Source of the DNA: Kiritimatiellia bacterium
GTDB taxonomy: Bacteria > Verrucomicrobiota > Kiritimatiellia > RFP12 > UBA1067
DNA: 64,000 nucleotides
Direction: 5' to 3'
Assembly (NCBI GenBank): GCA_050949565.1
Contig: JBMNFY010000017.1
Coordinates: 1,431,299-1,495,298, forward strand
Below, piece after piece: positions 1,712 to 61,400 of the stretch. Each line of letters starts with the position of its first letter. The first letter of the stretch is position 1. The position numbers and the translations under genes were made by a program. The notes beneath the pieces were generated by a model, which searched no databases, was not told the origin of the DNA, and saw nothing but the letters and a program-made list of their open reading frames with translations.

Positions 1712-1756
1712 AGCTGCCCTGTGGGCTCTGCCGGGACTGCGGGATCTGCGAGTGGT

Positions 1757-3643: not shown

Positions 3644-3785
3644 ATCCTTGTCTATAAATTGACAGGATTACATGATTTACATGATTTTCAGGATTGAATA
3701 ACATCATGTTAATCATGTAATCATGTCCTAAACTTACTCCATGGTTTTTTCGTGGCGAAGCCACGCGGCAGGCTAACTCCTAAAT
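3637..3785. mobile_element. 149-bp AT-rich MITE-like or sRNA-like element, copy A. It is bounded by 9-bp direct repeats CTCCTAAAT
   Basis: 100% identical to 43552-43700. It contains a -35-like TTGACA, direct repeats TACATGAT x2 and ATCATGT x2, the palindrome AACATCATGTT and a CGTGGC-gaag-GCCACG hairpin. The TAA stop of the 3284..3643 gene and the TAG stop of the 3780..4697 gene both lie in the terminal repeats. Confidence 0.7.
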
Positions 3786-4902: not shown

Positions 4903-7387
<2,485 letters not shown>

Positions 7388-7484
7388 CGTCAGCCCTTCG
7401 TTCGTTTTCCGATCATGCAAAAGGTTTCCGCCGCTGACGGAAACCCTCTGCAACGTTCGCGTGTCCGAGCGAACCGACGATGGC

Positions 7485-8723: not shown

Positions 8724-8748
8724 ACGCTCCCTCTCTGTTACACGCCGG

Positions 8749-9318
8749 TCATCCGGCGCTTTCCGTACCGTTCATCCGGTAGATCACCAGCCGTGTGCGG
8801 CCGTAAGTCCGGTCGCGCCACAAAACCCAGCCCTCTACCTCTTCAGGCTGCCGCCTCACCGGCATTTCAGCGGCGAACAGCCCGTCCGCGCCCAACACCT
8901 GGTTTTCGCGGATCAGCCGCATCACCCCGGCGAAGCCCTGATCGAGCCCGGCCACATACGGCGGATCGGCGAAAGCGATGGTGGCCTGCCGTCCGCGCCC
9001 GGCACCTTTCAGCCAGCGCGACACGTCACTGCAGACCACCTCGCCCTCGCCCGGCATCAGCGCCGCGACGTTGGCCTTCAGCACGGCCACATTGCGCGGA
9101 TCCTGCTCGACCCACGTCACGTGACGCGCGCCGCGACTGTATGCCTCGATCCCTACCGCGCCCGAACCTGCGAACAGGTCAATGAACACGGCATCAGGGA
9201 TCACCGTCATCAGCATCGCGAAAAGCGCCTCGCGCACACGGTCCTGAGTCGGCCGCACCTTGTCGCCCGGCGGAACCTTCAACTTCCGGCCGCACATCTC
9301 GCCGCCTGAAATTCGCAT
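8749..9318 (-). CDS. rsmD: 16S rRNA (guanine966-N2)-methyltransferase RsmD
   Basis: 'DLFAGSGAVGIEAYSRGA' and 'FADPPY' motifs. The start is at the internal ATG MRISGG. Confidence 0.8.
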   Translation of the reverse strand: MRISGGEMCGRKLKVPPGDKVRPTQDRVREALFAMLMTVIPDAVFIDLFAGSGAVGIEAYSRGARHVTWVEQDPRNVAVLKANVAALMPGEGEVVCSDVSRWLKGAGRGRQATIAFADPPYVAGLDQGFAGVMRLIRENQVLGADGLFAAEMPVRRQPEEVEGWVLWRDRTYGRTRLVIYRMNGTESAG

Positions 9319-9400
9319 AGGGGGATAAGTATAGGGGATCGGGGCGCCTCGGCGCAACCCTCCAAGCGCGCGAGCACGCGGCGCTACCGGTGGCGGTGGT

Positions 9401-9418
9401 GGCGGCGTGAACGCCGCC
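9401..9418. terminator. GGCGGCG-tgaa-CGCCGCC hairpin 3' of the MFS gene
   Basis: Same hairpin family, with flank CCCACAGAACTGGA as at 16724. Confidence 0.4.
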
Positions 9419-9495
9419 CACAGAACTGGAGGGTGCGGCTACGGGCGCTGCCAGGGCTGCCGGTGGCGGCTCGCGGGGACGCTCGCCCTCCAGTG

Positions 9496-34695: not shown

Positions 34696-35349
34696 TTATT
34701 GGACGGCCGCATCCGGTGCCGGTGCCGCGCCACCTTCCGGCGCACTCGGAGCCGAAGGCGTACCCGCCGCCAGCAACGCAGACTCGCCGCCGGTCCGCAC
34801 CACGCGGCCGGCAGGATCCACCAAGCGCGCCGTCACGAATACCAGCAGATTACGTTTGATCGACTGCTCAGAACGGCTCCGGAACAGACGGCCGAGGAAC
34901 GGCAGATCGCCGAGGAACGGGATCTTGTCCTCCATCGTCTTGCGGTCTTCCGTGATCAGGCCGCCCATGACGACCGTCGCGCCGTTGTAAACCGAAAGCT
35001 GTGTCTGCACCGAGCGCACATGGAAGAAGGGCTGCTCCATCGGCAGATCGTGTACTCGGCTCTCTGCGACACCATAAATGACTCCTCCAGGAGACTCGCT
35101 CCCAGACCCGCTTACGCACGGCCTCGGAATCTTTGTGCCGTAGTTCTTCCAGACCGGCTCAGAAACCACCTGCGGGTTCAGCAACAGGTTGATCATCTGG
35201 CCCTCAGCCGAAACTTCCGGCACCACCTGCAGGATCACGCCCACCTCGCGCATCTCGAAGTTCTGCGGCTCAACCATGAAGGGACCGGACACCGTAGGTG
35301 GCTGAGGAGGTACTGCTGCCGCCCGATGTATTGACCTCTTGGACTTCAA
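34696..35349 (-). pseudogene. C-terminal secretin-domain fragment of a PilQ/GspD-family secretin. It is out of frame with the upstream N-terminal part
   Basis: 'IPFLGDLPFLGRLFRS...NLLVFVTARLV' secretin signature. Overlaps the 35270..37897 ORF by 80 nt in a different frame. Confidence 0.7.
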
Positions 35350-37897
35350 ATTCGGTCGGATAGATGTACTCGGTGACGACCTTCATGATGGCTTCCTGCC
35401 CCGACTTGGTAACCACCTTGGGGGCCGACAGCAGATCCGTATCTGAACGCTGGCTCAGCATGTGCAGGATCATAGAGAGGTCAGCATTGCCAAGGAAAGC
35501 GTTGATACGCATGAAATTGTCGTTGATCCTGTTGCCTTCGCCGGCGATTGCGTTACCCTCGGTGCTCAGGTAGCGCTGACCGGTGCTGTAATTGACGCCA
35601 TCGATGGCATCAATGCTTGCGTTGTGATTGGGTGCGAGCACCGTGCCGTATTGGCCGGCACCGACCGCACCGGGCTTCAATGTGGCCCCGTCCCATCTAT
35701 AGCCACCCTGTCCGGCTGCGCTTCCGGGACGCGTATAGGGCGCATAGCCCATCAGCGGTGTCTCGCCATCAGCCGCAAACAGCGGGTGGCCCGCCGCATC
35801 CGTGAGCTGAGTCGGCTTGTTGCTGAACTCGCGCATGTTGAGCGCTTTGTCGAGGAAACCGCCAGCGTCGAAGCTGAAGTCGCTGTTCAGCAGCCACTCG
35901 AAACCGAGCGAGTTGAGGTCTTCCTGCGCGACCTCCACGAAGCGCGCCTCAATCTCGATCAAGCGGGGCGTGACGTTAAGGTCTTCCAGAACCTGCTCAA
36001 AGACAGCGAGTTGCTCAGCCGTATTGGTGACACGCAGCTTGCCGATGGTGGCGAGGTAGGAGATCGAGGAGCCGTCCGGCCACTTCACGCCCAACTGCTC
36101 GAAGAAGACCTTCCAGTCCTGCTTCTGACCCATGTCCGCCGTCTGCATAAAGGTTGTATCGCCGCCGCCGCCCTGCGGCCCCATCTCGCTGATCGCAGCC
36201 GTTACGCGGTCAGTCAGAGACGAGAGCACGTTGTAAGAGCGGGTCATCAGTTCGGTGTCCGGTTCGTTGGCCGGCACGATCATCACGATGTTGCCGCGGA
36301 TCTTGAACTTCATGCCGGTCACGTCGCAGACCAGCTTGAGAGCGTCGTAAAGGCTGATGAAGCGGGCGCTCAACGCCGAGATGGTCGGTGCCCCGCCCGG
36401 TGCCGGAGCGGCAGAGACCGGCGCGAAGGGATCCGGATTTTCCGGGGCAGGAGCAGCGGCGGTCGGGGTGGTGCTCAGCTTGAGCACGAGGTTCACGCCG
36501 CGCTGCTCGAGCGGAATTTCGGGCTTGTCGAAATCCCGGCTGGCCTGCTTAAAGAAGTCCACCGCATCGATAATGGTGGCGGGCGGACGGAAAGTGACTT
36601 CCGGAATGACGATATCGCGCAGCTTCTGCTGGACAACCTGCTCGGCCGTCTTGGTGCCCAGTGGATCGATGGTCGGCTCTTTACTTGTGAGATCGCCGCT
36701 CCCCTTGGGGCGCTGTGCACTATCGATGGCGTAGCGATCCGGCGTCCATGACGCACGCACGTCTCGGATCATCTTGCTGCGAGTGGCTTCAAACTCAATG
36801 TCCGAAACAGTTTTCATGCGGTCGGCGATGCGGTCGCGCAACTCCATGGCCTCAACCTCGTAGGGATGATCGCGCAGAATCAACTCACACTCCTCCATCG
36901 CTTTGTCATACTCGGCGGTGGTATAATACTGGCGCGAACGGCGCAGACGGCGCCGGATCTCGTCACGCTGCGTCTTGTATTCTTCCTCGTTGACGCGGTG
37001 CGAAATGCTGGAAGTATCGGCTTCGACCTTCGGCGGCTGACGCTTCAGTGCTTCAATCATACGCTCGGCCTGCGGATGGCCGTACTCTTTGGCCTGTGCG
37101 GCCAGCGGCAGCGCCTTCTCGACATCGGCCGCCTTCATCGCCTGCTTGGCATCCAGATAGAAGGCTTCGGCCATGCCGGCCTTGGCTTCATCGCGTGCAG
37201 CCTGGGTGGCGGGACGATTGCCGATGAACTCAAGCGCTTGCTTGTATTGATCCCGAGCCAACTCGTAGTCGCCAGCAGCCAAAGCTTTACGCGCGGCCTC
37301 CAGCGAGGCGAAGCCGTGGCTATCGAGCGACTTGCGGCGGATGGTCTCCAACGTCACCAGTTCCGATATCAAGCTGGCAGTGTCACCGTCCTGCTGCGCG
37401 ACAGCCGGAGTGGCAGGCGCGGGGGCCGCAGCGGGCTCAGCCGCCGGTGCGGGCGCAGGTTCTGCCGCCGGTGCAGGCGCAGGCTCTGCCGCCGGGGCAG
37501 GTGCGGGCTTTTCCTCAGCCTTGGGCTCTGCTGCGGGAGCAGGAGCGGGCGCAGGCTTTTCTTCAGCCTTAGGCTCTGCTGCGGGAGCAGGTGCCGGGGC
37601 GGGTTTTTCCTCGGCCTTCGGCTCTGCCGCCGGGGCAGGCGCGGGCTTTTCTTCAGCTTTCGGTTCCGCTGCAGGTGCGGGCGCGGGCGCAGGAGCCGGT
37701 TCGGCGGGTTTGGCCTCCGCCTTGGGCGCCGCCTCTGCGGCTGGAGCCGCCGGTTGCGCCGCCGCCGGTTTCTTACGCTGCCCACCCAAATCCTGCAACA
37801 GCGCTTCGAGATCATCTTGCGCGTACAGGCCGGTCACGGCTCCACAAGCCATGGCCGAAACACTCAACACTAACAACCACCGTTTACTATGCGTCAT
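35270..37897 (-). CDS. N-terminal part of the secretin: signal peptide, (PAPAPAAEPKAEEK)n low-complexity linker, TPR-like region and secretin N domains
   Basis: 'RLIEIEARFVEVAQEDLNSLGFEWLL' N-domain motif. The frame ends at 35270 before the secretin C-domain. Confidence 0.7.
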   Translation of the reverse strand: MTHSKRWLLVLSVSAMACGAVTGLYAQDDLEALLQDLGGQRKKPAAAQPAAPAAEAAPKAEAKPAEPAPAPAPAPAAEPKAEEKPAPAPAAEPKAEEKPAPAPAPAAEPKAEEKPAPAPAPAAEPKAEEKPAPAPAAEPAPAPAAEPAPAPAAEPAAAPAPATPAVAQQDGDTASLISELVTLETIRRKSLDSHGFASLEAARKALAAGDYELARDQYKQALEFIGNRPATQAARDEAKAGMAEAFYLDAKQAMKAADVEKALPLAAQAKEYGHPQAERMIEALKRQPPKVEADTSSISHRVNEEEYKTQRDEIRRRLRRSRQYYTTAEYDKAMEECELILRDHPYEVEAMELRDRIADRMKTVSDIEFEATRSKMIRDVRASWTPDRYAIDSAQRPKGSGDLTSKEPTIDPLGTKTAEQVVQQKLRDIVIPEVTFRPPATIIDAVDFFKQASRDFDKPEIPLEQRGVNLVLKLSTTPTAAAPAPENPDPFAPVSAAPAPGGAPTISALSARFISLYDALKLVCDVTGMKFKIRGNIVMIVPANEPDTELMTRSYNVLSSLTDRVTAAISEMGPQGGGGDTTFMQTADMGQKQDWKVFFEQLGVKWPDGSSISYLATIGKLRVTNTAEQLAVFEQVLEDLNVTPRLIEIEARFVEVAQEDLNSLGFEWLLNSDFSFDAGGFLDKALNMREFSNKPTQLTDAAGHPLFAADGETPLMGYAPYTRPGSAAGQGGYRWDGATLKPGAVGAGQYGTVLAPNHNASIDAIDGVNYSTGQRYLSTEGNAIAGEGNRINDNFMRINAFLGNADLSMILHMLSQRSDTDLLSAPKVVTKSGQEAIMKVVTEYIYPTEFEVQEVNTSGGSSTSSATYGVRSLHG

Positions 37898-37978: not shown

Positions 37979-39052
37979 CTAATCAAGCTTGGGAATAACT
38001 TTTTGTTGCCCGTTAGCCTCGTTCTCTATCGTGACAACCGTTTTCTCACCATCCACGGTAAGGACGCGGTATGTTTCTTCGCGGACTTTGAACGTGCCAC
38101 CCTCCAACACCGTGTACTCGGCATTGTCGAGCGGGAACACGATCACCGCTTCAACATCTGTGACCTTTCCGCCTTCGTTGATTGTCAACGTCATCACCTT
38201 GTTGTCCGACAGTCTTTTCACTTCTACGGTCGAGACGTCCACCCGCATTTTGATGCCGGGCATATTAGGATTCTCGCGCTCGACGGATTTTGCCGTGACC
38301 GTTCCCGCAGCATAACCGGTCTCGCCGATCGGCTCATTCTCGCGCACCCAGTGGGTCCTGCGGATCGGTTCGACTTGGTTAAACACAATCTGGTTTTTGC
38401 CATCAGGCATCTTGTTGACGCCGCTGAAAATCAATGGCATGCGTTTGCCGCGCAACTCTTTCACGCGCAGGAGACTGACCAGCGGCGGATGTGATTTGGG
38501 GTCTTTCGGATCCGTCTTGGCGATGAACTCCTGAAGGTTGGTAAAGCCGTCGCCGTCGAGGTCGCCGTGGGCGTCCGCAGGGTCGTTCGGATTCAGACCA
38601 AGCGCAATCTCGATGCGATCCGGGATACCGTCGCCGTCGGTATCCAAGTCTGGATCCGCCTCCGCAGGTTTCGGTTGGCCGCCCCCGCAGAAGGGGCATT
38701 TCTCGGCGGCGTAGGGGATGGGTTTCTGGCACTCTTTAACCACGCAGGTCACACGCCGCTCCGGCATCAAAAAACCTGCCTTCTGGGCATCGGGAGTAGC
38801 AAGCTGCAACGGTGTGCGCGCCAACCGGATGGCGTCTTCAAACTCCGTCATGTCGATGGCTTTGAGGGCAGTGGAATCAGGCTTCAGCGAATCGATCCTG
38901 AGCTTGTAGTTCGCCTCTTCACGCTGCCGGGCAGGCCCTGCCGAGCGCGTGAGGTAAAACAGGGAGATGACGAGGCCAATCAGCACCACGACCACGATCA
39001 CTTTGTCGTAGTACTTGACGATGGGGTTATTCGCGTTGAATTTCAAGGCCAC
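37979..39052 (-). CDS. Membrane-anchored protein in the PilP position, with a CxxxC...CxxC zinc-ribbon-like motif and thrombospondin-type-3 Ca-binding repeats
   Basis: N-terminal TM; 'DTDGDGIPD...DLDGDGFTN'; sits between the PilO-like gene and the secretin. Confidence 0.45.
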   Translation of the reverse strand: MALKFNANNPIVKYYDKVIVVVVLIGLVISLFYLTRSAGPARQREEANYKLRIDSLKPDSTALKAIDMTEFEDAIRLARTPLQLATPDAQKAGFLMPERRVTCVVKECQKPIPYAAEKCPFCGGGQPKPAEADPDLDTDGDGIPDRIEIALGLNPNDPADAHGDLDGDGFTNLQEFIAKTDPKDPKSHPPLVSLLRVKELRGKRMPLIFSGVNKMPDGKNQIVFNQVEPIRRTHWVRENEPIGETGYAAGTVTAKSVERENPNMPGIKMRVDVSTVEVKRLSDNKVMTLTINEGGKVTDVEAVIVFPLDNAEYTVLEGGTFKVREETYRVLTVDGEKTVVTIENEANGQQKVIPKLD

Positions 39053-39055
39053 GGT

Positions 39056-40024
39056 TTATACTCCCTCAAACGAGTAGACATCGATCTCAAGTTTCACTGC
39101 CACCGGCGGTTCCAGTTCGGGATCGGTCACAATCCGTTCGACATGCGACAACTTGGCCGGATCGACAGGTTCCGCCGCGCCTTCGGCGGCAGCCTTCGAA
39201 GAACTCTCTTTTCTCTTGGCGTTGAACTGCGCCAAGGGATCGGCCGTCTTGCGCAACTCGGCTTCGGCCACAACCACAAACATATCCATGGCCGCCAGCC
39301 GGTTCAGCGCCTCAATGAGCGCAACAGGGCGCGCGACGAATTCGAGCGTAAAGCGCTGGCTGGTCCAATACGCCGACTCCGTGCGTGCGGCGGCCCCGGA
39401 TGCTCTGGCACTTCCGCCGCTGTCATCCCGGCGACGGGAACGGCGGCGCGAGGACGACTCCTGTTCCTCTTCCTCTTTTTTCACGACGTCAAAGACCTCG
39501 CGGGAAACGCTTCTCAACTCCATGATGCCGGCTGCGTAAAGCTCCTCACAGAGCTTCTCGATGATGGTCAGTTGCGCGGTCAGGCGATCCACATGTTCTG
39601 ACGCAGGCAGACTGTCGGACTGGCCAAGGTATTGGTCGAAGCCGAAGTTAAATCCGGGGGCGACAACCCTGCCCTGCACCGCACCGGCCTGAGCGGAGAG
39701 TTTGCGGACCGTAGCTTGAAGCGTCTGCTTGAAACTGGTCGGCGTTTTGGATTCAATCTGGAGGTCGCCTTTGTGAAGCTGATTGGAGGCGGTCACGAGC
39801 CAGCCTTCCAGCACCTTCTGATCCTCGCCGACGCGCGCGATATTCTCGTCGCTGGGGAAAACCTTGCCCCGGTAGATCTGCTGCAACGCCTGATATGCCT
39901 GGTCACGCTCTTCTGCCGCCCTGTTTTTGGCGGTTGTTTGGGTAAAGAGGAACCAGCCGGCAACGCCGCAGACAGCGGCCATCACGATGCCGCAAACGAT
40001 CATTATGATCTGTTGACGTTTCAT
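39056..40024 (-). CDS. PilO-like pilus assembly protein (TM plus coiled coil)
   Basis: Called from position and architecture only. Confidence 0.45.
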   Translation of the reverse strand: MKRQQIIMIVCGIVMAAVCGVAGWFLFTQTTAKNRAAEERDQAYQALQQIYRGKVFPSDENIARVGEDQKVLEGWLVTASNQLHKGDLQIESKTPTSFKQTLQATVRKLSAQAGAVQGRVVAPGFNFGFDQYLGQSDSLPASEHVDRLTAQLTIIEKLCEELYAAGIMELRSVSREVFDVVKKEEEEQESSSRRRSRRRDDSGGSARASGAAARTESAYWTSQRFTLEFVARPVALIEALNRLAAMDMFVVVAEAELRKTADPLAQFNAKRKESSSKAAAEGAAEPVDPAKLSHVERIVTDPELEPPVAVKLEIDVYSFEGV

Positions 40025-41712
40025 TTCGTTTCGGTATCCTTCGCGGCTGCTTCGGCCAACGTCGCCTCGATTGTAAACTCAATCAAATACGCCTCGATAT
40101 CCTTCTGGCCGGTGATTTTGACATCTTTCGGTCCATTGCCGAACACTGGCTGCGTCTTCAGACGGTCGCGCAACACCTCCAACGCTGTCGCACTGCGTCC
40201 GGCTTCGCGCTCTTTCTCCTCGACCGCCTTGAGCTTGTCCACCCAACCGCGTCCGACAATGCGCAATCCGGTCACAACGCCGCCCTCGTCCTTGATCGGC
40301 ACCAGTTCGGTGAGCCAGACCCCATCCAGCAGGCTTTTGCGCACGGCGTCCACGCGTTTCAGCCATGCCGTCCGCTGCAAGATCACGTCTCGCATCGCCT
40401 CGGCCTTCTTCGCGACCTCTCCTTCGGCAGCCTGCGCCTTGTTGAGCCGGGCCAGATCGCCCTTGCGCACGTCCAGCGCCGCGTTCACCTGCGCGCTCTG
40501 GGCATGGTAGAGTTCTGCGAGTTGCTTGGCGTGCACCGCCCAGATGAACAGGCAGAGCAACACGCCGGCCGCCGCCAGAGCAAAGTACGGCACGCGCTTC
40601 TTGAACGACTTGCGCTTCACGATCTCGGGCGGCATCAGGTTGATTTCAACCGGACACGCCAACGAGCGGCGCAGCGCCAATCCCACGCTCTCGGCCAACA
40701 CGAAGGCGTCTATGCTAACCCGGTCGCTATTGATCCGGTTGCTGATCCCGACGTTCTCAAACGGGTTGAGGTAGGTGACCTCAATCTGCAACTTGTCGTG
40801 AAAGAAGGTGTCCAGATGCGGCATAACCGACGAACCACCCGTCAGGAACATCCGGACCGGTGCGTTGCCGCCCTGCTGGCTACGATAAAAGTTAACGGAA
40901 CGATTGATTTCGGCGTGCAGACGCGTCACCACGTTGCGCACGATTTTCGAAACCCGCTCGGATGTCTCGTCCTCCGAGACGGTCACCCCGCCCAGCGATA
41001 CGAAAGCAACCTGCCGTTTCAATGCCTCGGCCTCTTCAAAGGAAATCTGGAAGCTCTTGGCGACCTCTTGCGTGATGGCATTACCGGCCACCGGGATGCA
41101 GCGGGTGTAAATTTTCTCGTCTTCAATAAAAATCAGATTGGTCGAACGCGAACCGATATCAAGCAACACCGTGCAGCCGTCCAACTGCGAGTAGTTGTAG
41201 CGCAGGCAGTTGTAGAGCGCCATCGGTGCCACATCGACGACCTCGGGCTCCAGCCCCATCTCCACGATGCGGTCGGTAATCTCGCGGACGTTCTCGGTCT
41301 TGGCCGCGACGATCATCGCACACTGCTCGCCCATTGTGGCGTCGCCGATGAACTGGTGGTTCCAAACGATCTCGCTCATCGGGAACGGGACGTTCTGCTC
41401 CACCTCGTACTGCACCATCTGGAGCAGTTTGTCCTCGGCGACGGCAGGCAACCGCACGAAACGCGGAAATACCATCTGACCGGAGAGCGAGAGCATCAGC
41501 GGCGCGGGGCGGATCCCGCATGTCTTCATGATCTCGCGGATAGCGGACTCCAGATTCGGACCAACACCTGTGTCGGTCTCCGGATTGCCTCCCACCTCGG
41601 CCATGCCGTAGTTGGTCAGCTCCGGCGCGCGCCCGCTCCTGACGGCGAATTCGGCCAATACAACTTTGCTCGCGCCCACATTGAGCGCGAGGATACGATC
41701 AGACGAGAACAC
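40021..41712 (-). CDS. pilM: Type IV pilus assembly ATPase-like PilM (actin/FtsA fold) fused to a PilN-like TM/coiled-coil C-terminus
   Basis: N-terminal 'ILALNVGASKV...' actin-like fold; TM 'VPYFALAAAGVLLCLFIWAV' at about aa 370, then coiled coil. Confidence 0.7.
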   Translation of the reverse strand: MFSSDRILALNVGASKVVLAEFAVRSGRAPELTNYGMAEVGGNPETDTGVGPNLESAIREIMKTCGIRPAPLMLSLSGQMVFPRFVRLPAVAEDKLLQMVQYEVEQNVPFPMSEIVWNHQFIGDATMGEQCAMIVAAKTENVREITDRIVEMGLEPEVVDVAPMALYNCLRYNYSQLDGCTVLLDIGSRSTNLIFIEDEKIYTRCIPVAGNAITQEVAKSFQISFEEAEALKRQVAFVSLGGVTVSEDETSERVSKIVRNVVTRLHAEINRSVNFYRSQQGGNAPVRMFLTGGSSVMPHLDTFFHDKLQIEVTYLNPFENVGISNRINSDRVSIDAFVLAESVGLALRRSLACPVEINLMPPEIVKRKSFKKRVPYFALAAAGVLLCLFIWAVHAKQLAELYHAQSAQVNAALDVRKGDLARLNKAQAAEGEVAKKAEAMRDVILQRTAWLKRVDAVRKSLLDGVWLTELVPIKDEGGVVTGLRIVGRGWVDKLKAVEEKEREAGRSATALEVLRDRLKTQPVFGNGPKDVKITGQKDIEAYLIEFTIEATLAEAAAKDTETK

Positions 41713-42413
41713 TATTGCACCACCTCGTAATCGTCCGGGTTAACCAAGGCAAACGGCGTCTTCGAACGCTCCAACAGCCCTGGGCGCCGGACCAAGAACG
41801 GATTGCCAGCCGCATCGCGCCTGTCCATCACGTTGGTGTCGCGCCACCACTCCTGCGGCAGTTGAATGCCGGTGGCCAGCGCCTCGCTGGCCACCACCTT
41901 ACCGTCCTTACCGGAAATTTCGAGTGCGATCGCGACCGGCTCGCCGTAGCGTTCCACGAGACTCGGCGGCAGAGCCACGCAACTCATGTGGCTGCCTTTC
42001 GGGATGTCGATGTACTTGACCGTCGCGGTGTAGTAACTGTAAATATCCTTGTTGTCGTCATCGCGGCCCTTGGTCATCACGTGGTAGATGAAGGTCAACT
42101 CGTCGGTCCACTTGGCGGAAGTTTCGTACCTCACCTCGAAGAGCGCCCACTCGCGCGGCCTGCGGCTGACTCTGGGCTGGACGTTGTTCACCGAATAGTT
42201 GAACTCGGGGGTTCTCACCATCGCCGTCTTGCCCGGCGGCGGGAAGCGCGTAATCTTGACCGTCTCCTCTTTCTTGGCCGTGGCCTGCGTAGCCGTACGC
42301 TGACTCAGCCGCCCGACCTGAGCCACAGCAGACTCAGCCAGACAGAAGAGGGCTGCTACCACACACACCGTTCGCAGAAACGTTTGCTCTCTTTTCATGT
42401 CGACGATCTCCAA
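41712..42413 (-). CDS. Secreted hypothetical protein, first gene of the pilus-like operon
   Basis: Signal peptide; shares a 1-nt overlap (coordinate 41712) with pilM. Confidence 0.5.
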   Translation of the reverse strand: MEIVDMKREQTFLRTVCVVAALFCLAESAVAQVGRLSQRTATQATAKKEETVKITRFPPPGKTAMVRTPEFNYSVNNVQPRVSRRPREWALFEVRYETSAKWTDELTFIYHVMTKGRDDDNKDIYSYYTATVKYIDIPKGSHMSCVALPPSLVERYGEPVAIALEISGKDGKVVASEALATGIQLPQEWWRDTNVMDRRDAAGNPFLVRRPGLLERSKTPFALVNPDDYEVVQ

Positions 42414-43545: not shown

Positions 43546-43551
43546 CAAAAA

Positions 43552-43700
43552 CTCCTAAATCCTTGTCTATAAATTGACAGGATTACATGATTTACATGAT
43601 TTTCAGGATTGAATAACATCATGTTAATCATGTAATCATGTCCTAAACTTACTCCATGGTTTTTTCGTGGCGAAGCCACGCGGCAGGCTAACTCCTAAAT
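43552..43700. mobile_element. 149-bp AT-rich element, copy B (identical to 3637-3785), flanked by CTCCTAAAT direct repeats
   Basis: Base-by-base identical to copy A. The TAG stop of cimA (43695-43697, minus strand) lies inside the right repeat. Confidence 0.7.
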
Positions 43701-52425: not shown

Positions 52426-53622
52426 TCACCGGATTTCGGAAAGATCGACCGTCGGCAGGTTGCAGGCGTCGAGCGAGACCTTGTGAACGAGCAGGTCATG
52501 TTCGTAGAGCCCGGGCGGATTGGGAATTTCGCCGCGGATGATGCGCGCCAACTCCTGAAGCTGTCCCGCATAGCGATCCGTCGGCACCGGGAACGAAATG
52601 CGGTTGATGCCGGTGTGGTACCCCGCCGCCTTCGCCGCGCCGTTCACGACCTTCAAATACATTTTCACTTCGAGCTTGTCAACGCGGGCAAGACCTTCAT
52701 TCAGCCCCGTCGTGTGCTTGACTGTCCTGAAGTCCTCGATCGGTTCGAGCGCCATCGACCCGTTGGTCCCGTCGATCCGAATGTGGCGGCACGGCTGCGT
52801 GCCGCGCGAGCAAACGCGGATCACGACGTTTGCACGCGGATATTCGAGAATTGTCAACGAATGCGTGAGCGCATCCTCCGGATCTCCCGGCGCCGCCTTG
52901 AGAATCGAATACGTCTTCGCCGGCAACGCATCGTTGAAGATCGGCATCGCCCACTCGATCACGTGGCACGCGAGAAGGTAGGCCGTGCCCCCAGGGTAAA
53001 ACGATGCGTATTCGGGATATTTCGGATAGCCGTAACTGTGATCGAGATCGGCTTCGACTGAGTAGATCTCCCCGAGCGCTCCCGACTTCGCGATTTCCAC
53101 CATCTTGTTGATGGCCGCGTTGGAGCGGAACATGTAGCCGATTTGGAGCGGCACACCCAGACGTTCACAGATGCGACTCATCTTCGCGAACCCGGCCTGA
53201 TCCGTGCCGAGGGGCTTGTCCATGTGCATCGGGATTCCATGGTGCGCGATTTCGGTCGCGACACCGACCAGTTCCGAGTTGGAACACTCAATGACGATGA
53301 GGTCCGGCTTCACCTCGTCGAAAACCTGCTGCGGCGTGAAACACGGATAGTTGGTGTAGCCTTTCAACGACGGCTCAGTCATCCGCATCGCCGTCGAGGC
53401 GCGGTCATCCACCCAGCCGACCATCTCGAAGTCATTCGTGAGCTTCAGCACCGCATCCCACTTGCCGCGCGAATGGTTGTGAATAATTCCCCAATGGACG
53501 ACCCGCGCCTTGCGGTTTCCGATTGGTTTCCATTGCTCCCCCACCGCCCTCTCGCAGACCACGCAGCCGACCAACAACATCGCCGCCACGCCGAAAATTC
53601 CCTTCAGCCTGTTCGTGCTCAT
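52426..53622 (-). CDS. Gfo/Idh/MocA-family NAD(P)-dependent oxidoreductase (lipoprotein-type signal)
   Basis: Rossmann N-terminus. The start at the internal ATG abuts the upstream stop. Confidence 0.7.
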   Translation of the reverse strand: MSTNRLKGIFGVAAMLLVGCVVCERAVGEQWKPIGNRKARVVHWGIIHNHSRGKWDAVLKLTNDFEMVGWVDDRASTAMRMTEPSLKGYTNYPCFTPQQVFDEVKPDLIVIECSNSELVGVATEIAHHGIPMHMDKPLGTDQAGFAKMSRICERLGVPLQIGYMFRSNAAINKMVEIAKSGALGEIYSVEADLDHSYGYPKYPEYASFYPGGTAYLLACHVIEWAMPIFNDALPAKTYSILKAAPGDPEDALTHSLTILEYPRANVVIRVCSRGTQPCRHIRIDGTNGSMALEPIEDFRTVKHTTGLNEGLARVDKLEVKMYLKVVNGAAKAAGYHTGINRISFPVPTDRYAGQLQELARIIRGEIPNPPGLYEHDLLVHKVSLDACNLPTVDLSEIR

Positions 53623-53623
53623 T

Positions 53624-55105
53624 TCATCCCCTCGCAAACGGATCCCAGCCCTTGCGATAGGCCTTCGTGACATTCTTGTCGGCTTCCGCATTGTTCGTCA
53701 CATGATGGCCGTCCCACTCCAGCACCGAGCCCTTTCCGGCCACTGACGAGATGTTGCCGAGGCAGACCGTCTTCGCGAGCGGAACCGAATACTCAAAGTT
53801 GTCGTTCGCTTCGCGCTGTTCGCGGATCGCCTTGTAGAATTCGTAGAAGTGCATCGGCGTCACGCGGCGGTAGTTGAAGTCGTGCGGACGGTCCACGCGC
53901 GGGATGCACCAGCCCGCCGAACGCGGCATGAAGCGATAGCCGCCGTGATGCGTGAACCAGAGATTCGCCTTCGTGCCGACGAAAAGGACCCCGTTCTTGT
54001 AAAACGGATCGTTCTCAAAGCCGTTTGCCTTCTCGACCTCGAGAACCTTCGGCGGGATATTGAGATGCTCGCGCTTATGGGGCATACCGAACTTGTTGAC
54101 GAATTCCTTCGTGTAGGGCACGCCTTCGTTGAGTCCGTCCCACCAGTGCATCGTCACCTCGTGGCCGAACTTCGAGGTCGGATAGTGGAACTCGAACGCA
54201 TCGCGGAAGCCCCAGGCGCCTTCAAGCGCGAACTGCGCATCGTGACACGTCACGCGATCGGGATCCTTGAGGCCGAGCGCCCAGAACGCGACATCCATGA
54301 TGTGCATGCCGAGGTTGCCGATCGACCCGTTGCCATAGCCGATCCAACTGTGCCAGCCGTGCGGATGCATGCCGTCCTGGTCAGGAGTTTCTGGGTAGTA
54401 GTCGCAGATGGGCGAGCCGCCGCACCAGAGATCCCAGTCCATCCCCTTCGGCGGCGGAGCGGCCGCGGGACGCTGGTAGATGGAATTACAACGGTCGTCG
54501 TAAGCCCAGACCTCCTTCACCTCTCCGAGATTCCCCTCGGCGATGCGGTCGACACAGTACTTCATTGACGGGAAGGAGTGTCCGTACGTGCCGCACTGCG
54601 TCACGATACCCGGACGCTTACGCGCCTCGGCGAGGATGAGGTCGCATTCGGCCACTGTAAGACAGAGAGGCTTGTCGAGATAAACGTGGATGCCGCGGCG
54701 CAGCGCCATCACCGCCGGCAGCGTGTGCTGATGGTTCGGGGTTTCAACGACGATGGCATCGATCTCGTCACCCATCTGATCAAACATGTCCTGATAGGTG
54801 GAGAAGCGCCGCGCGGACGCGAAGTTCGCCTTGTCTGCGGCACTGCACGTCTTGGCGACGAGCTTTTCAAGAATGTCGAAACGGACCGGATCGGGATCGA
54901 CGATCGCAACGAGATTTTCGCAGAGAACCCCGTCGATCATACATCCCGTCTGCAATCCGCATCCGATCAGCGCGACGCGGATTTTCGCGCCCTTGGCGAT
55001 CTGGCGGTTACGCGAGAGGCCGAAGCCTGCGCAACCGATATTAAAGAGCGGCAAGGCCGAAGCCGCCGCGACGCCCTTCAGAAGATTCCGTCGATTGGTG
55101 TTCAT
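53624..55105 (-). CDS. Tat-secreted Gfo/Idh/MocA-fold protein, GH109-like (NAD-dependent glycosidase candidate)
   Basis: Tat motif 'NRRNLLKGVAAASALP'; 'ALIGCG' Rossmann motif; about 490 aa, typical of GH109. Confidence 0.6.
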   Translation of the reverse strand: MNTNRRNLLKGVAAASALPLFNIGCAGFGLSRNRQIAKGAKIRVALIGCGLQTGCMIDGVLCENLVAIVDPDPVRFDILEKLVAKTCSAADKANFASARRFSTYQDMFDQMGDEIDAIVVETPNHQHTLPAVMALRRGIHVYLDKPLCLTVAECDLILAEARKRPGIVTQCGTYGHSFPSMKYCVDRIAEGNLGEVKEVWAYDDRCNSIYQRPAAAPPPKGMDWDLWCGGSPICDYYPETPDQDGMHPHGWHSWIGYGNGSIGNLGMHIMDVAFWALGLKDPDRVTCHDAQFALEGAWGFRDAFEFHYPTSKFGHEVTMHWWDGLNEGVPYTKEFVNKFGMPHKREHLNIPPKVLEVEKANGFENDPFYKNGVLFVGTKANLWFTHHGGYRFMPRSAGWCIPRVDRPHDFNYRRVTPMHFYEFYKAIREQREANDNFEYSVPLAKTVCLGNISSVAGKGSVLEWDGHHVTNNAEADKNVTKAYRKGWDPFARG

Positions 55106-55179
55106 GTTCCCGCTCCTTTTGATGCTCATGTTACCATCTTCTTTCCGGGATTTCATCCTCAACCTCATGCCGAACAGCA

Positions 55180-55310
55180 ATCGGTTAGTGACGGGGGCAC
55201 GCGAGGATCATGCGTTTCTGGTGAAAAGGGGAGCCGAGAGTCGGTTTTTGGACATGATAGACATGAGCACCAACCACGCACTCGACTCGCACCCCCTGTC
55301 ACTAACCGAT
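55180..55310. mobile_element. Complete ~130-bp MITE with 26-bp TIRs (ATCGGTTAGTGACGGGGGCACGCGAG / CTCGACTCGCACCCCCTGTCACTAACCGAT)
   Basis: Direct inspection; lies between the GH109-like gene start and the giant gene. Confidence 0.7.
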
Positions 55311-55484: not shown

Positions 55485-58400
55485 GTGAGCGCTGTCTCGG
55501 CAGTGGATTCTGTTTGGATTGGAGGTGCCACAGGCTCGTGGACAGACGCCGCCAACTGGTCGGACGGCGTGCCGCAAGCCGCGTCCGACACGGCAACCTT
55601 CAACACCCCGGCGGTTGTCACGATCCCGGCAAGCATCACGCTGAAAACGATCTTCGCCAATGCCCCGGCCACCGTCACGGTCGCGGCGGGTGCAACGCTC
55701 GCCCTCTCGAACGGCGGCGGCGATATTCTGGTCGCCAGTGCGGACTTCATCCTCGGCGGCGACGGCGACATTACGGTCTCGCGCAACGGCACGTCCACCA
55801 CCGATTTTGCGAATATCAAGCCAGCGGCAGGCACCACCCTCACAATCGCCGCCCGCATCACCGGCGTGGAGGGTTCGGGCGTCGAGTTGAACGCGGCGGG
55901 TACCCTGCTGCTGACGAATCCCGGCAACTCCTTCACAGGGACAACCCGCATCTCGAGGGGCAACGGCACCGTCGTGTTCACCGATCCCGCCGCGCTGGGC
56001 GTGACGGCCGTGCGCTCCGACGGCAGCCCGTCCAAATTCGTCTACACCGGCACCTCGCAAGCCACGCTAACGCTCCCCGTCCAACTCAGCGCCGGCAGCA
56101 CGTCGTTCGAAAACGCAGGCGGCGGTCCCTTGACCTTCAGCGGTGCCATCGCCCCCATTTCCTCCGGCACCAAAACGCTGACCTTCAGCGGTACGCAGAC
56201 CAACATCCTCAGCGGCACGCTCTCCAACGGCACCGGTGCCCTGAATGTCGTCGTAGCAGGCGGCGGCACGCTCGTTTTCTCCGGTACGGCCACTGACAAC
56301 GCCTTTACCGTCAACGAAGGCGGCACGCTGGCAGTCGGTCCCGGCGCGACCTTCAACACCACCTTGCTCACTTGTCAGGCAGGCAGTACCCTAGCGTTCA
56401 ACCCGGCGGCGGCAGACAATTTTGCCGTCACCCTGCCGCTGACCAACGCGCTCAACGGTGCCGGTGTCCGCTGGTTGATCCCGAACGCCCCCTCTGCTTC
56501 GACCGTCGCCGTACCGACGCTCGAACGTGTCACAGGTGCCACTCTGGACGTCGTGGCTCCGGCGCTGGGCACCCCTTCCAACCGACTCGTGATCCAGAAC
56601 CTGACCCCCGGCCCGCTGCCCGCCTGGTTCACCGTCAACGGCCAGCCCGCCGTTTATGATGCCGCGCTGGGCGTGTTGGCCGCGAGCGCCACCGGCCCGA
56701 CCGTTTCCCTGACAGCGCTCGGCCCTTCGGTGATCCCGGACGACGCGACCGCCGCCGCCGTCATCGACGCCGCCGGCACAGCGGGCGGCATCACGCTTGC
56801 CGCTGATCCCACGCACCTCTTCTCGCTCACGCAACAACATGCGGACAATCCTGCGGCCGTCGACCTCGGCGGGCAGACCCTCGCCGCTTCACTTGTTGCC
56901 ATCGACGCGAACGGCAACAACCTGACACTCGCCAACGGTACGCTGACCACGCCCTCCGCCCAGACCCCGCCCAGCGGCGCCGCCGTGCTGCCCACGCTTC
57001 CGGCCGCCCCGCTGGCCTGGTACGACCTCGCCGACGCCGCGACCGTCACCACCGATGCCGACGGTCGTATCACACGGGTGGCCAACAAAGGCTCGCGCGG
57101 TAGCGAGTTGGACGCCGCCGTGCCCGGCGACCGTATCGGACCGCGCTATGTCCCGGGGGCGGTCAACGGACTCGGCGTCGCGCGGGCCGACGGCATCGCG
57201 CCGCCGCAGGGCCTCGCCTCGCTTGGCACCCCCGGCATCTCCGGTAAGGCCCCGCGCACCACCTTTTTGGTCGCAGCGCGCCATCCCACCTCGCGAAACA
57301 ACTTCTACGCCCTCTATCTTGGTTCCGATGCCGGCAACAACCAAGACTTCACCACCTGCGAGCGCTATTACGTCACGTCCTTCTCCACCAAGGACAATGA
57401 CCTCGACATCACCACGCCCTCGCCCGCCGGGCATAATGTACTGACCTTTATCTCGGGCCTCAACGACATACCGGACGCCGGCGCGGGCTATCGCAACGGC
57501 GTGCTGCTCGGCACCAAGACCTTCGCCTTTGCCACGGTCGACGCCCCCATCCACCTGCTGCACCGCCCGAACACCGCCGCCAATTTCTCGGGGCCCGGCG
57601 ATGTGGCCGAAGTGCTTGTCTTCGACTACACGCTCTCGGACACCGACCGCGCGGCCGTCGAAGCCTACCTTATGCAGAAATGGCGGATCACTGCGCAACG
57701 CGATGAGACGTTGCTGGCATTGCGTAACGACAACCCAGACGCTGAACTGACCGTCACGGCCAACGTGGCCGACGCCTACGGCACGCACCTCGCGCTCGCC
57801 AAGTCCGGCCCCGGCAACGTGACGCTTGGTGGTCCGCTCGACTTCACCGGGCCACTCCTGATTCAGGACGGATTTCTCACGTTTGACATACCCGCCGATC
57901 GCTCCGCTGTCGTGAACGCGGCCATCAGCGGTCTCGGAACGCTGTGCAAGACCGGGGCCGGTGGCCTGGCCCTCTCCCTGCCCAGTCCCTTCTCGGGCGG
58001 TACCCTTATCCAGGGCGGCACCCTCTACCCCGGACACAACGGCTCGCTTGGTAGCGGTCCCGTCTCCATCGCGAACGGCGGCGCGCTGGATATCGCCAAC
58101 GCGCCGGCCACCGCCAACCCCGTCACAGGTACCGCGTCCATCGCCAATCCGATCACAGCGGAAGGCACCGGCCCGGACGGCTTGGGCGCCCTGCGCCACA
58201 GCGGCGGCGTCAGCCAGCAGAACGCCTTCAGGAACGTGGCGCTCTCAGGTGACACGGCCGTCTATTCGGCCTCGCGCTTCGATGTGCGCGGCGGCGCCTT
58301 CGATTTCGGCGGCCACGCGCTGACCGTCAACGGCGGCGGCGAATTCTCCATCGTGCAGTCGGCGGTCTCCAATGTGACCGCCGCTACTTCCGTGCAGATC

Positions 58401-61400
58401 GCCGACGGCATGTTCCGCTTTGAGCAGAGCGACTTCCAAGGCTCGGCGGCCACGGTCGCCGACGCCGCCGCCGGCGCGGGCGTCTGCCTGTATCAGATGA
58501 CAGCGCCCCTGCTGTGGTCGCTGAATCTTGCGGACAACGCCTATTTCCGCGTCAACAACGGCAACATGGACACCAATCTGAATGTCTGGGCCGGGCCGGT
58601 GACGCTCGCCGCAGGCACGTCGCGCCTCAATGCCCTGCCCGGCGGAACCGCCGCCATCACCGGCGCCGTCGGCGGAGACGGCGGCCTGCTCAAGGAGGGC
58701 GAAGGCTGGTTCTGGCTCTTCAACCCGGCCAACACGTACGCCGGCGCCACCACCGTGACACAGGGCAACCTCTACGCCGTCGCGCCCGGTACACTGGGTG
58801 CGCAGGCCGTCGCGGGCCTCACCGTTTCCGACACCGGCGCCTTCATCGCCCGTGTCGCCTCCGGCACCTCCGCCGACGGCTTCAGCCACGCGCAGCTCAC
58901 GGCCCTGGCCGATACAACGTTCTCCACGGCACCCGCCTCCACCGCCCTCGGCTTCGACACCTGTTACGAGGATTTCGCCTTCACGAGCGACTTCCCGTTC
59001 ATCGGACTGAAAAAACTCGGGACGCACACGCTCAGCCTCACGGGCAGCGCTCCCGATCTGGGTCCGGTCGATGTGTACAACGGGGAACTCGACCTGACCG
59101 CCACCGGCAACCACGCGCTGCACACCTATTCGGTCGCCGTCGGCGCAGCACCCGACGCCTCCGCACGCGCCGTCCTGCGACTGGCCGGCACCGCGCTCAA
59201 CACGGATGATCCCGGCTACAGCCGGACCGGTCCGGCGCTGCTCGTCGGCGCGGCATCCGACTCCCGCGCCATTCTGCATGTCGGCGAGGGCGCCGTCGCC
59301 AACGGACGGCTGCTCGTCGGCAACGGCACCGGCTCCGCCGGCGCCGTCTATCAGACCGCAGGGGTCGTGACCAACACGGGCGGCACCGCCAACGACAGTC
59401 GCATCGGCGAAAACGGTTTCGGTTATTACCGCCTCGACGGCGGCGAACTGGCCAACAAGGGCTATGTCCAGCTCGGCCGCAACAGCGGGGCCACGGGTAT
59501 CATCGAACAGCGTGGCGGCACGCTGCGTATCAACACCGGTGTCGCCCCCGCCAGCGGCGTCATCGGCGACTACTACAACGGCACCCTCTCCTGCCGCGCC
59601 GGCGTGGGCATCTTCCATCTGGCGGGCGGCGTGTTCGACACAGGCGGCCACTCCCTCCAGCTCGGCGAGTGGGCAGGTGAGAACAACTACTCCAACGGGT
59701 TCGCCGTGCTCACGCTCGAAAACGACGCCCAAGCCGTCGTCAACAGTGAGATCCGCCTCGCCAATCGCAACGGGGCGCCGGAAGCGTACGTCAACCTCAA
59801 CGGCGGCGCGCTGACCGCCCGCTACTTCCAAAAGGGCGGCAACAACGCTGCCGGCAATGCGTCGGCCGCCGCGATCGCCTTCAACGGCGGCGTGCTGCGC
59901 GTGGCCGATCAGGGCAATACCGCGTCGTCCTTGGTCCGTACCGGCAGCAACAACAGCCCGGCCATGCTCAACGTCTACGCGGGCGGCGCCGTGATCGAAA
60001 CGCCCGGCGCCGGCGGCGGCACCACAGCTCGACCAGCCGCTGCAGCGCGCCGTCCGGCCTCGGCGTCGCATCCGTCACCGTCACCGCGCCCGGTAGCAGG
60101 CTACATCGCGCCGCCGGCCGTGCTCTTCTCGGGCGGCAACGGCTCCGGCGCCACGGCCATCGCAGAGATCGACACCGCGACCGGTACGCTGACTGCCATC
60201 CGCGTGACCTCGCCCGGCACGGGATATACATCCGCGCCGACCGTCGTCCTGCGTGGCGGAGGCGGCACCGCAGCCGCGGCCTCGGCTGCCGTTGCCACGT
60301 CCGCCAGCGGCGGCCTCACCAAGCTCGGCACCGGCCTGCTCAACCTGGCCGCCGCCAACACCTACACCGGCCCCACCATCGTCTCCAACGGCACCCTGCG
60401 CCTCGCGGCCGGCAACCAAACCCTCTCGCCGGCCAGCGCGCTCACCCTCGCCGGCGGCACGCTGGATCTGGCGGCGCCACGGTCACCAACTTCCAGCCCG
60501 TGGCCATCGAGAGCGGACGCCTCGTCAACGGCAGCCTCTCGGCCCAGTCCTTCACCAAGACCGGCCCAGGCACGGCCACCCTCACGGCCGCGCCGGTGGT
60601 TCCATCGCCCGAAGCCCTTTTCCAAAGTTACGTACGGACCCTCGCTCCCGTGGCGCTGGTACGACCCCTCGGACTCGTCCGCCGTCACCCTCAACGGGGC
60701 AGGGCGCGTCGTTGCGCTCGCCAACAAGGGCACGCGCGGCGCCGCCCTCGACGCCGCCCCCACGGCCGCGCCCAACCTCTCCAACCCGCCTCTCCTCGCC
60801 ACCGGCACGCTCTCCTACGCCGCCTCTGGCCTGCCCATGCTCAAGATCGACGCCAACAATACCGGGCTCGTCTCGACAGAAGCCCTCGGCATCACCGGCG
60901 CCGTCCCCCGTACGGTTGTCACCGTCCTCACCCGCGAGTCCGACACCACCGCCGCCTACACCTGCTTCGGTGCCGCCTCCGCCGGCCAGATGTGGGAAGT
61001 CGGCGACCGCGCCGACAACTCTTCCGTCGTCATTGGCGGCTACTCCGACTTCGACCTGAGCATGTCGCCCCGGCCCACGGCCAAGGTCGCCCACGTCGTC
61101 TATTCCCAGCTCACGACCGCCAAAAAATCGGAGGCCTGGCGCACCGGCGACGGCCAGAATTACAATTCCCTGACCACCGCCGGGGACTTCAACACCGCCG
61201 ACTCGCGCTTCGTCATCGGCAACCGCATCGACGCCGGCAAGACCACGGCGCGCGGCGAGATCGGCGAAATCCTCATCTTCGACCGCCTTCTCTCTGCTGG
61301 CGAACGCGAGCAGCTCATGGAGATGCTCCGGCAGAAATGGACAACCGCCGAAGGCTTGGCCGAGCCGGAAGACGCCGCCGAGCCCGTCACCGTCGCCGAA

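What the first reader, a model, noticed from the sequence alone, without database searches (positions are those of the whole stretch)
34696..37897. Pilus/T2SS secretin gene split by a frameshift between the N-domains and the secretin domain
The 875-aa ORF (35270..37897) has the signal peptide, an A/P/E/K-rich linker and secretin N-domains, but it stops at 35270. The conserved secretin C-domain (IPFLGDLPFLGRLFRS...) is in the +1 frame (34696..35349) and overlaps by 80 nt around GGTGTCCGGTCCCTTCATGGTTGAGCC. There is no homopolymer at the junction. The options are a sequencing or assembly indel, a true pseudogene meaning the pilus system is inactivated, or, least likely, programmed frameshifting.
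Basis: seen in the sequence. Interest (0 to 1): 0.5.

Follow-up and report, generated by a model that had tools for sequence, protein, structure and literature searches.

The report
Secretin gene split by assembly error
A pilus secretin gene in an uncultured Kiritimatiellia genome really is split by a one-base frameshift in this sequence, but the split is most likely an error made when co-existing strains were merged into one consensus, so it is ordinary.

Summary
ORF1 (35270..37897, minus strand, 875 aa) and ORF2 (34696..35349, 217 aa, +1 frame) are two pieces of one PilQ-like secretin related to Akkermansia Amuc_1098. It ends an Amuc_1102-to-1098-type pilus cluster.

The break lies inside the secretin domain (Pfam positions 2-58 and 51-169), not between the N-domains and that domain.

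The window comes from an NCBI metagenome-assembled genome (MAG) with a 1.97 Mb contig. The split allele was found only in that record. At least ten other assemblies of the same species carry an intact 1058-1074 aa gene, and one is about 100% identical in DNA over most of the gene.

The extra base sits in a loop that varies between strains. A second variable loop 170 nt downstream has its reading frame scrambled by several small indels that cancel out. That scrambling removes an aromatic residue kept in 234 of 238 relatives.

The same contig has similar private 1-nt indels in another variable gene. There the window carries the bases of both known alleles. All 9 window-private frame-breaking indels lie within 6 nt of strain-polymorphic sites (P = 6e-8).

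Verdict: collapsed-strain consensus artefact, about 0.8. A real strain-specific pseudogene is about 0.13. Programmed frameshifting is effectively excluded. Interest is low.

The parts
34696..37897 (-). Whole PilQ-like (Amuc_1098-type) secretin gene, read as ORF1 plus ORF2. Removing one base near 35293 gives a 1066-aa product.
   Evidence: Intact 1058-1074 aa homologues.
35270..37897 (-). ORF1, 875 aa (NCBI MGI6391412.1, locus tag ACOX7Q_14675). It holds the signal peptide, an A/P/E/K-rich repeat linker, a TPR-like region, the N-domains and the first ~58 profile positions of the secretin domain. Its last 7 residues (GVRSLHG) are out of frame.
34696..35349 (-). ORF2, 217 aa from TTG. NCBI calls it from the ATG at 35277 as a 193-aa protein (MGI6391411.1). 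It holds the rest of the secretin domain, Pfam positions 51-169.
35285..35296 (-). Frameshift site in variable loop 1. The window reads TAC G GTG T CCGGT CCC TTC. The intact allele reads TAC GTG CCG GTT CCC TTC (ATYVPVPFMV). The net change is +1 nt.
   Evidence: DNA alignments. Frameshift-aware protein-to-DNA alignment puts the shift at 35293-35299.
35047..35125 (-). Variable loop 2, frame-scrambled but open. Against the L002/L005 allele class the indels are about -1, +2, -1, +1, -1 (net 0). ORF2 reads RPCVSGSGSESPGGVIYGVAESRVHDL. The pieces VRKRVWERV / LLEE(F) / IYGVAE / AEYT, which match intact alleles (RTVRKRVWDDVLEEFIYGVAETEYIDL), lie in three different frames.
37979..39052 (-). Amuc_1099-family pilus-like system protein, intact.
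   Evidence: 83.7 bits, cut-off 50..
39056..40024 (-). Amuc_1100-like pilus-like protein, intact. It has a clean 3-nt codon insertion relative to the JGI strain.
40021..41712 (-). Amuc_1101-like / PilM-like protein, intact.
41712..42413 (-). Amuc_1102-related pilus-like protein, intact.

Best explanation
The gene is an ordinary, normally intact PilQ-like outer-membrane secretin of an Amuc_1098-1102-type type IV pilus-like cluster in a Kiritimatiellia bacterium from biogas or anaerobic-digester communities. The frameshift is most likely not in any living cell. I infer it arose when a long-read metagenome assembly merged reads from co-existing strains that carry different alleles of two hypervariable loops of the secretin domain. 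Where two alleles differ, gap-containing read alignments make a majority consensus keep the bases of both alleles, or of neither. That produces private 1-nt insertions and deletions. In loop 2 these cancel out, so the segment is scrambled but open. In loop 1 they sum to +1 and split the gene. Shown: the location, the uniqueness of the allele, the association with polymorphic sites and the both-allele signature. Inferred: the consensus mechanism itself, because no reads were available.
For: (1) The window is 99.6-99.9% identical to JGI contig Ga0534105_00111 over about 61 kb. Within the secretin gene it is 100% identical in most 100-nt bins, and that strain has an intact 1074-aa gene. (2) The split allele was found only in the source record, as a cluster of one protein on one contig among about 15 billion proteins. 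The 90%-identity cluster of the intact protein has 31 members from NCBI, JGI, ENA and Logan assemblies. (3) All frame-breaking differences in the gene lie in two short patches that are hypervariable and mosaic among strains. The conserved 150 nt between the patches and the other ~2.9 kb have none. (4) Loop 2 matches real alleles only when read in three frames. As written, it replaces an aromatic residue present in 234 of 238 homologues with Val, while the +1 frame reads AEYT. (5) The same contig has further private 1-nt indels at 55475, 60026, 60045, 60096, 60472 and 60654. At several of these the window holds the bases of both known alleles. For example, the references read CACCAC[A]CTC or CACCAC[G]CTC and the window reads CACCAC[AG]CTC. 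Elsewhere GTGA-TTCTGG or GTGA-CCTTGG becomes GTGACCTCTGG. (6) All 9 window-private non-3n indels lie within 6 nt of a site polymorphic among the other assemblies, against a background of 15.7% (binomial P = 5.6e-8). (7) Away from these sites, strain differences are clean SNPs or codon indels. Other genes checked give full-length domain matches. (8) The other large contig of this species has its own private indels that split the same hypervariable giant gene. Gene truncation by indels is a documented quality measure for long-read genome and MAG assemblies, and microdiversity is reported there to affect MAG fragmentation (PMC9262707).
Against: No reads, coverage or assembly method were available, so the mechanism is inferred from sequence comparison only. 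No sampled intact allele equals the window with its indels removed, so the true allele is unknown. Variable loops are also where real indels are best tolerated. Three of the four indel groups sum to a multiple of three, which could hint at selection for an open frame, although chance gives this roughly 1 time in 9. The 7-mer painting of the loops by known alleles was suggestive only.
Confidence: 0.8

Rival explanations
1. It is a real strain-specific pseudogene. One strain in the community truly carries the +1 frameshift and the scrambled loop 2, which inactivates the secretin and hence the pilus-like system, perhaps as escape from a pilus- or secretin-dependent phage.
For: The sequence as deposited has the lesion. 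The loops are clearly fast-evolving and recombining within the species, so they may be under diversifying pressure. Loss of surface structures is a common resistance route (general knowledge).
Against: About 6-8 small indels are packed into roughly 110 nt of two variable patches. There are none in the other ~3 kb, which is about 100% identical to an intact allele, and that is not how neutral decay looks. The four other cluster genes are intact. The allele was never sampled again, although the species appears in about 160 data blocks. The same contig shows the same private-indel pattern, with both-allele bases, in an unrelated gene.
Confidence: 0.13
2. It is a generic long-read base-calling error, such as a homopolymer or methylation-motif miscall, that polishing failed to fix because short reads map poorly to the variable loops. 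No mixing of alleles is involved.
For: A 1.97 Mb MAG contig implies long reads. Several putative missing bases sit in CC, CCC or TT runs, and GGWCC, CCGG, CCTGG and GATC motifs are nearby (sequence). This reading is still an artefact and overlaps with the best explanation.
Against: At most private sites outside the secretin the error is an insertion that carries both alleles' bases, not a homopolymer miscount. Over 60 kb there are no private indels outside polymorphic sites.
Confidence: 0.05
3. It is programmed +1 ribosomal frameshifting that makes a full-length secretin from the two ORFs.
For: Only the +1 frame relation and the 80-nt overlap.
Against: None of the more than 250 homologues retrieved needs a shift, including strains about 100% identical in DNA over most of the gene. 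Homology places the switch at ACC TAC G GTG, where there is no in-frame stop, no CUU-UGA-type shifty site and no run. Even after a shift, loop 2 stays scrambled.
Confidence: 0.01

Closest known systems
Amuc_1098 (PilQ) of Akkermansia muciniphila and its Amuc_1098-1102 pilus-like gene cluster (NCBIfam NF042912; PMC4960237, PMC5332112)
   Same: It is the best-scoring family for both ORFs (E 1e-85 and 2e-47). The profile is covered end to end, positions 5-804 of 805, in intact allele P0254. The architecture is the same: an N-terminal TPR-like region followed by a C-terminal secretin domain. The gene order is the same, with Amuc_1102-rel, Amuc_1101/PilM, Amuc_1100 and Amuc_1099 homologues directly upstream.
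   Different: The host is a different class (Kiritimatiellia). Even the intact alleles score 446-448 bits against the curated equivalog cut-off of 750. The protein has an extra A/P/E/K-rich repeat linker of about 140 aa. In this record the gene is split.
Type IV pilus PilQ and type II secretion GspD secretins (TIGR02515, TIGR02517; PDB 6VE2, 5WQ7, 6I1X)
   Same: The C-terminal secretin domain is shared, including the ...GGL...(V/I)P(F/L)LGD(I/L)P.LG.LF... motif. An N-domain match is present (TIGR02515 positions 129-196).
   Different: All scores are below the family cut-offs. The N-terminal half is unrelated. There are two long variable insertions inside the secretin domain.
Indel-derived split genes in long-read genome and MAG assemblies (PMC9262707; proovframe preprint 10.1101/2021.08.23.457338)
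   Same: A private 1-nt indel splits a gene that is otherwise intact in other assemblies, on a contig of megabase scale.
   Different: The errors here are not spread along the contig or tied to long homopolymers. They are confined to strain-polymorphic sites and often contain both alleles' bases.
Programmed +1 frameshifting as in prfB (release factor 2)
   Same: Only the +1 relation of the two frames.
   Different: There is no conservation of the shift, no shifty stop context and no regulatory logic, and a second scrambled segment lies downstream.

Membership tests
Secretin superfamily (Pfam PF00263) | A C-terminal secretin domain scoring above the Pfam gathering score | tested here: met
   ORF2 alone scores 97.8 bits against a cut-off of 27.5 (HMM positions 51-169). 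ORF1 supplies positions 2-58 at 22.5 bits. Intact allele P0001 scores 118 bits.
Secretin superfamily (Pfam PF00263) | One continuous polypeptide joining the N-domains to the secretin barrel | tested here: not met
   In the window as written, a stop at 35270 ends ORF1 within the domain. The feature is met in every other assembly of the species.
Amuc_1098 family type IV pilus outer membrane protein (NCBIfam NF042912, equivalog) | Whole-protein score at or above the curated cut-off of 750 bits | tested here: not met
   ORF1 scores 288 bits and ORF2 162 bits. Intact alleles P0001 and P0254 score 446 and 448 bits. It is the best-matching family with full-length profile coverage, but the protein is a distant relative, not an equivalog by NCBI's threshold.
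Amuc_1098 family type IV pilus outer membrane protein (NCBIfam NF042912, equivalog) | Gene neighbourhood with Amuc_1099, Amuc_1100, Amuc_1101 (PilM-like) and Amuc_1102 homologues | tested here: met
   All four are found in that order directly upstream. Amuc_1099_fam is above its cut-off (83.7 vs 50). The others are below theirs (81 vs 180, 471 vs 650, 29.7 vs 55). Precomputed Pfam hits to PF28028 and PF28178 were found on these genes in L001, which in the window differ only by a few SNPs and one codon insertion.
Programmed +1 ribosomal frameshift genes | The frameshift is conserved in orthologues | tested here: not met
   No shift is needed in any of the more than 250 homologues retrieved, nor in the 31-member 90% cluster other than the source record itself.
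Programmed +1 ribosomal frameshift genes | A shift-prone site (slippery codon before a stop or a rare codon) at the point where homology changes frame | tested here: not met
   The switch is at ...GCC ACC TAC G GTG..., and the 0-frame stop lies about 20 nt further on. No such motif was seen on reading the sequence.
True (decaying) pseudogene | Disabling mutations and relaxed constraint spread along the gene, or decay of partner genes | tested here: not met
   All indels lie in two variable patches. The rest of the gene is about 100% identical to an intact allele, and the partner genes are intact.
True (decaying) pseudogene | The same disabled allele is present in reads or in independent samples | tested here: inconclusive
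   The allele was not found in any other assembly at protein level. Read data could not be examined.

The most novel reading that the evidence does not exclude
The frameshift and the scrambled loop are real in one strain. In that case a Kiritimatiellia lineage has knocked out its abundant PilQ-like secretin by indels inside loops that are hypervariable and mosaic within the species. That would point to strong diversifying pressure, for example from phage, on these secretin loops, ending in loss of the pilus-like system. The within-species loop hypervariability itself looks real whatever the status of the frameshift.
Probability: 0.12. Interest if true: 0.3.

Novelty: not a real feature. Interest (0 to 1): 0.1.

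Why it matters
The practical point is that the two deposited proteins (MGI6391412.1, 875 aa, and MGI6391411.1, 193 aa) should be treated as one secretin. Loss of the pilus system should not be inferred for this MAG. More generally, near-finished long-read MAGs can carry private, frame-breaking indels exactly where strains differ. Those sites tend to be surface-protein loops, so apparent pseudogenes and compensated frameshifts there need read-level confirmation. The real biology underneath is modest but worth noting: two loops of an Amuc_1098-type secretin are hypervariable and mosaic among strains of one species.

Tried and rejected
- Exact look-ups of ORF1 and of the 193-aa ORF2 product in the contig index found nothing. 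The source was identified through the protein cluster tables instead.
- Scans of metagenome and genome collections with a 56-nt conserved pattern next to the junction returned only a 93% relative whose contig ends at the variable loop (L003) and a 77% relative (L004). They returned neither the source nor a second copy of the allele.
- A third protein search with a frame-repaired C-terminus (ATYGVPVPF...; RAVRKRVWERVLLEEFIYGVAETEYTDL) found no identical intact allele. The best hit was 85% identical.
- 7-mer painting of the loops by known alleles was too noisy to prove a two-allele blend.
- The a/b run pattern of SNP matches shows fine mosaicism around the private indels. Real recombination could also give this, so I use it only as consistent evidence.
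- Rfam and tRNA scans of the window were empty.
- I looked for other split genes. The candidates 7676-9438, 4903-7453 and 52426-55207 are separate, complete genes.
- I did not predict a structure or place the two loops on a solved secretin. The only alignment, to 6I1X, puts loop 1 opposite the S/T/G-rich segment after the VPV motif. Calling that segment GATE1 rests on my memory only.
Full report
**1. Observation**

The window holds the two ORFs exactly as described. ORF1 is 35270..37897 (-), 875 aa, and ORF2 is 34696..35349 (-), 217 aa. They overlap by 80 nt. ORF2 is in the +1 frame relative to ORF1, and there is no long homopolymer at the junction.

Pfam Secretin is split, with HMM positions 2-58 at the end of ORF1 and positions 51-169 in ORF2. 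The break is therefore inside the secretin domain, not between the N-domains and that domain.

**2. What the gene is**

- The best family for both pieces is NCBIfam Amuc_1098_fam, the PilQ-like outer-membrane protein of the Akkermansia pilus-like cluster (E 1e-85 and 2e-47).
- Directly upstream on the same strand lie homologues of Amuc_1099, Amuc_1100, Amuc_1101 (PilM-like) and Amuc_1102.
- Amuc_1098 is the experimentally localised, highly abundant outer-membrane PilQ of A. muciniphila (PMC4960237).
- Even the intact alleles reach only 446-448 bits against the curated cut-off of 750. This is a distant relative with the same architecture and synteny, not an equivalog.
- Homologues are Kiritimatiellia/Kiritimatiellota proteins of about 900-1200 aa, and all are continuous.

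**3. Source and population context**

- The 193-aa ORF2 product and the 875-aa ORF1 product are NCBI proteins MGI6391411.1 and MGI6391412.1 (locus tag ACOX7Q_14675). They come from a Kiritimatiellia MAG with a 1.97 Mb contig.
- The scrambled ORF2 sequence forms a cluster of one protein on one contig.
- The intact protein's 90%-identity cluster has 31 members. Many are full-length, at 1074, 1066, 1065 or 1058 aa, and come from independent NCBI, JGI, ENA and Logan assemblies.
- Other proteins of this organism recur in about 160 data blocks, mostly biogas or digester metagenomes.
- JGI contig Ga0534105_00111 is 99.6-99.9% identical to the window over about 61 kb. It carries an intact 1074-aa gene.

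**4. Anatomy of the lesion**

Across the secretin gene the window is 100% identical to the JGI allele in most 100-nt bins. Divergence is concentrated at 35306-35047.

*Loop 1, the junction.*
- The window reads TAC-G-GTG-T-CCGGT-CCC-TTC.
- The JGI allele reads TAC GTG CCG GTT CCC TTC (ATYVPVPFMV).
- The net change is +1 nt at about 35293.

*Loop 2, 35047-35125.*
- The window belongs to the allele class of L002/L005 (protein RTVRKRVWDDVLE(E/L)F(I/F)Y(G/D)VAETEYIDL).
- It differs from that class by about five small indels (-1, +2, -1, +1, -1).
- As a result VRKRVWERV, LLEE(F), IYGVAE and AEYT lie in three different frames, and ORF2 reads RPCVSGSGSESPGGVIYGVAESRVHDL.
- A frameshift-aware protein-to-DNA alignment still prefers two or three extra frame changes here, even at a penalty of 10 each.
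- The written frame puts Val where 234 of 238 homologues have Tyr, Trp or Phe. The +1 frame restores AEYT.

Both loops are hypervariable in length and sequence, and mosaic among strains of the same species.

**5. Is it biological?**

Several lines of evidence say it is not.

(a) The indels are confined to the two variable patches. The 150 conserved bases between them and the other ~2.9 kb have none.

(b) The cluster partners are intact. Other genes in the window that I checked give full-length domain matches.

(c) I compared the window with up to seven other assemblies per position. The window has further private 1-nt indels, and they fall only in another strain-variable region. These are at 55475 (just upstream) and at 60026, 60045, 60096, 60472 and 60654, inside a giant PATR-repeat gene. 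At these sites the window often contains the bases of both alleles:
- CACCAC[A]CTC or CACCAC[G]CTC in the references becomes CACCAC[AG]CTC in the window.
- GTGA-TTCTGG or GTGA-CCTTGG becomes GTGACCTCTGG.
- CCCGTGG-GCTGG or CCCGTGG-CGTGG becomes CCCGTGGCGCTGG.
- The deletion at 60472 is what results if both gap-aligned SNP columns are dropped.

(d) All 9 conservatively counted private non-3n indels lie within 6 nt of a site polymorphic among the other assemblies. The background is 15.7%, giving P = 5.6e-8.

(e) Elsewhere, differences from the JGI strain are clean SNPs or a codon insertion.

(f) The JGI long contig has its own private indels that split the same giant gene, and another MAG (GCA_040774445.1) is riddled with indels. 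Such errors are therefore common in assemblies of this population. Gene truncation by indels is an established quality measure for long-read genome and MAG assemblies, and microdiversity is reported to affect MAG fragmentation (PMC9262707).

**6. Mechanism proposed (inferred)**

I infer that reads from co-existing strains with different loop alleles were collapsed into one consensus. Where alleles differ, alignment columns containing gaps lead the consensus to keep both bases or neither. This gives private ±1 indels.
- In loop 2, and in two groups within the giant gene, the indels sum to a multiple of three.
- In loop 1 they sum to +1 and split the gene.

I estimate about 0.8 for this explanation. 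A further 0.05 goes to unpolished generic long-read error, which is also an artefact.

**7. Rivals**

*Real strain-specific pseudogene (about 0.13).*
- It cannot be excluded without reads.
- It would need about 6-8 indels packed into about 110 nt of an otherwise identical 3.2 kb gene.
- It would also have to coincide with the same pattern in an unrelated gene on the same contig.

*Programmed +1 frameshifting (about 0.01).* It fails on three counts:
- conservation of the shift;
- a shift-prone motif at the switch point;
- loop 2 staying scrambled even after a shift.

**8. What did not help**

- Exact look-ups and DNA scans did not find a second copy of the allele.
- k-mer painting and SNP run patterns are consistent with the artefact but not decisive.

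**9. Verdict**

The gene is a known kind of secretin in a known kind of cluster. The split is most probably not a real biological feature but an assembly-consensus artefact at a strain-hypervariable loop. Interest is low, about 0.1. Read-level phasing at 35000-35350 would settle it.

Noticed in passing
window 35285-35330 and 35047-35125; homologues P0001-P0282: Two segments of the secretin domain are hypervariable in length (loop 2 ranges from about 12 to about 38 aa) and in sequence. They are mosaic among strains that are otherwise about 97-100% identical in DNA over the gene region, which suggests recombination and diversifying pressure on these loops. Loop 1 aligns opposite the S/T/G-rich segment after the VPV motif of GspD (6I1X).
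   Followed up: partly
window 55485-62600 (+), private indels at 60026, 60045, 60096, 60472, 60654; also 55475: A giant 2371-aa PATR-repeat surface-protein gene (GC 67-72%) carries window-private 1-nt indels that scramble short stretches while the ORF stays open. The JGI contig has different private indels and a split gene there. The strains are finely mosaic in this gene.
   Followed up: partly
window 675-1714 and 2305-3278: Two tandem arrays, of 115 nt x 9 copies (98% identical) and 106 nt x 9.2 copies (99%). They lie in an ORF-poor region of lower GC (50-57%) with strong GC skew and are flanked by ATTTAGG heptamer repeats at 499-537 and 3261-3285. There is no Rfam match. The arrays are conserved in the JGI contig.
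   Followed up: partly
window 3636-3785 and 43551-43700: An exact 150-nt direct repeat with copies 40 kb apart, each lying just 3' of a minus-strand gene. It begins and ends with ATTTAGGAGT and folds into a long hairpin (dG -45 kcal/mol, z = -5.1). Synteny with GCA_900198705.1 breaks at 43560. It may be a small mobile or MITE-like element.
   Followed up: partly
window 37420-37800 (N-terminal linker of the secretin): The A/P/E/K-rich linker is built of AEPKAEEKPAPAPAP-like repeats. One Logan allele (P0253, 1058 aa) lacks one 16-aa unit, so repeat copy number varies between strains.
   Followed up: no
L014 (GCA_040774445.1, JAXGUI010000004.1), aligned to window 40098-62355: This public MAG differs from all other assemblies by well over 100 small indels across its ~22 kb aligned to the window, and its genes are fragmented. 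It should not be used as a reference for frame calls.
   Followed up: partly
L003 (Ga0255343_1005093): A short-read metagenome contig of a 93% relative ends 14 nt beyond the conserved block next to loop 1. This fits assemblers breaking at this hypervariable loop.
   Followed up: no
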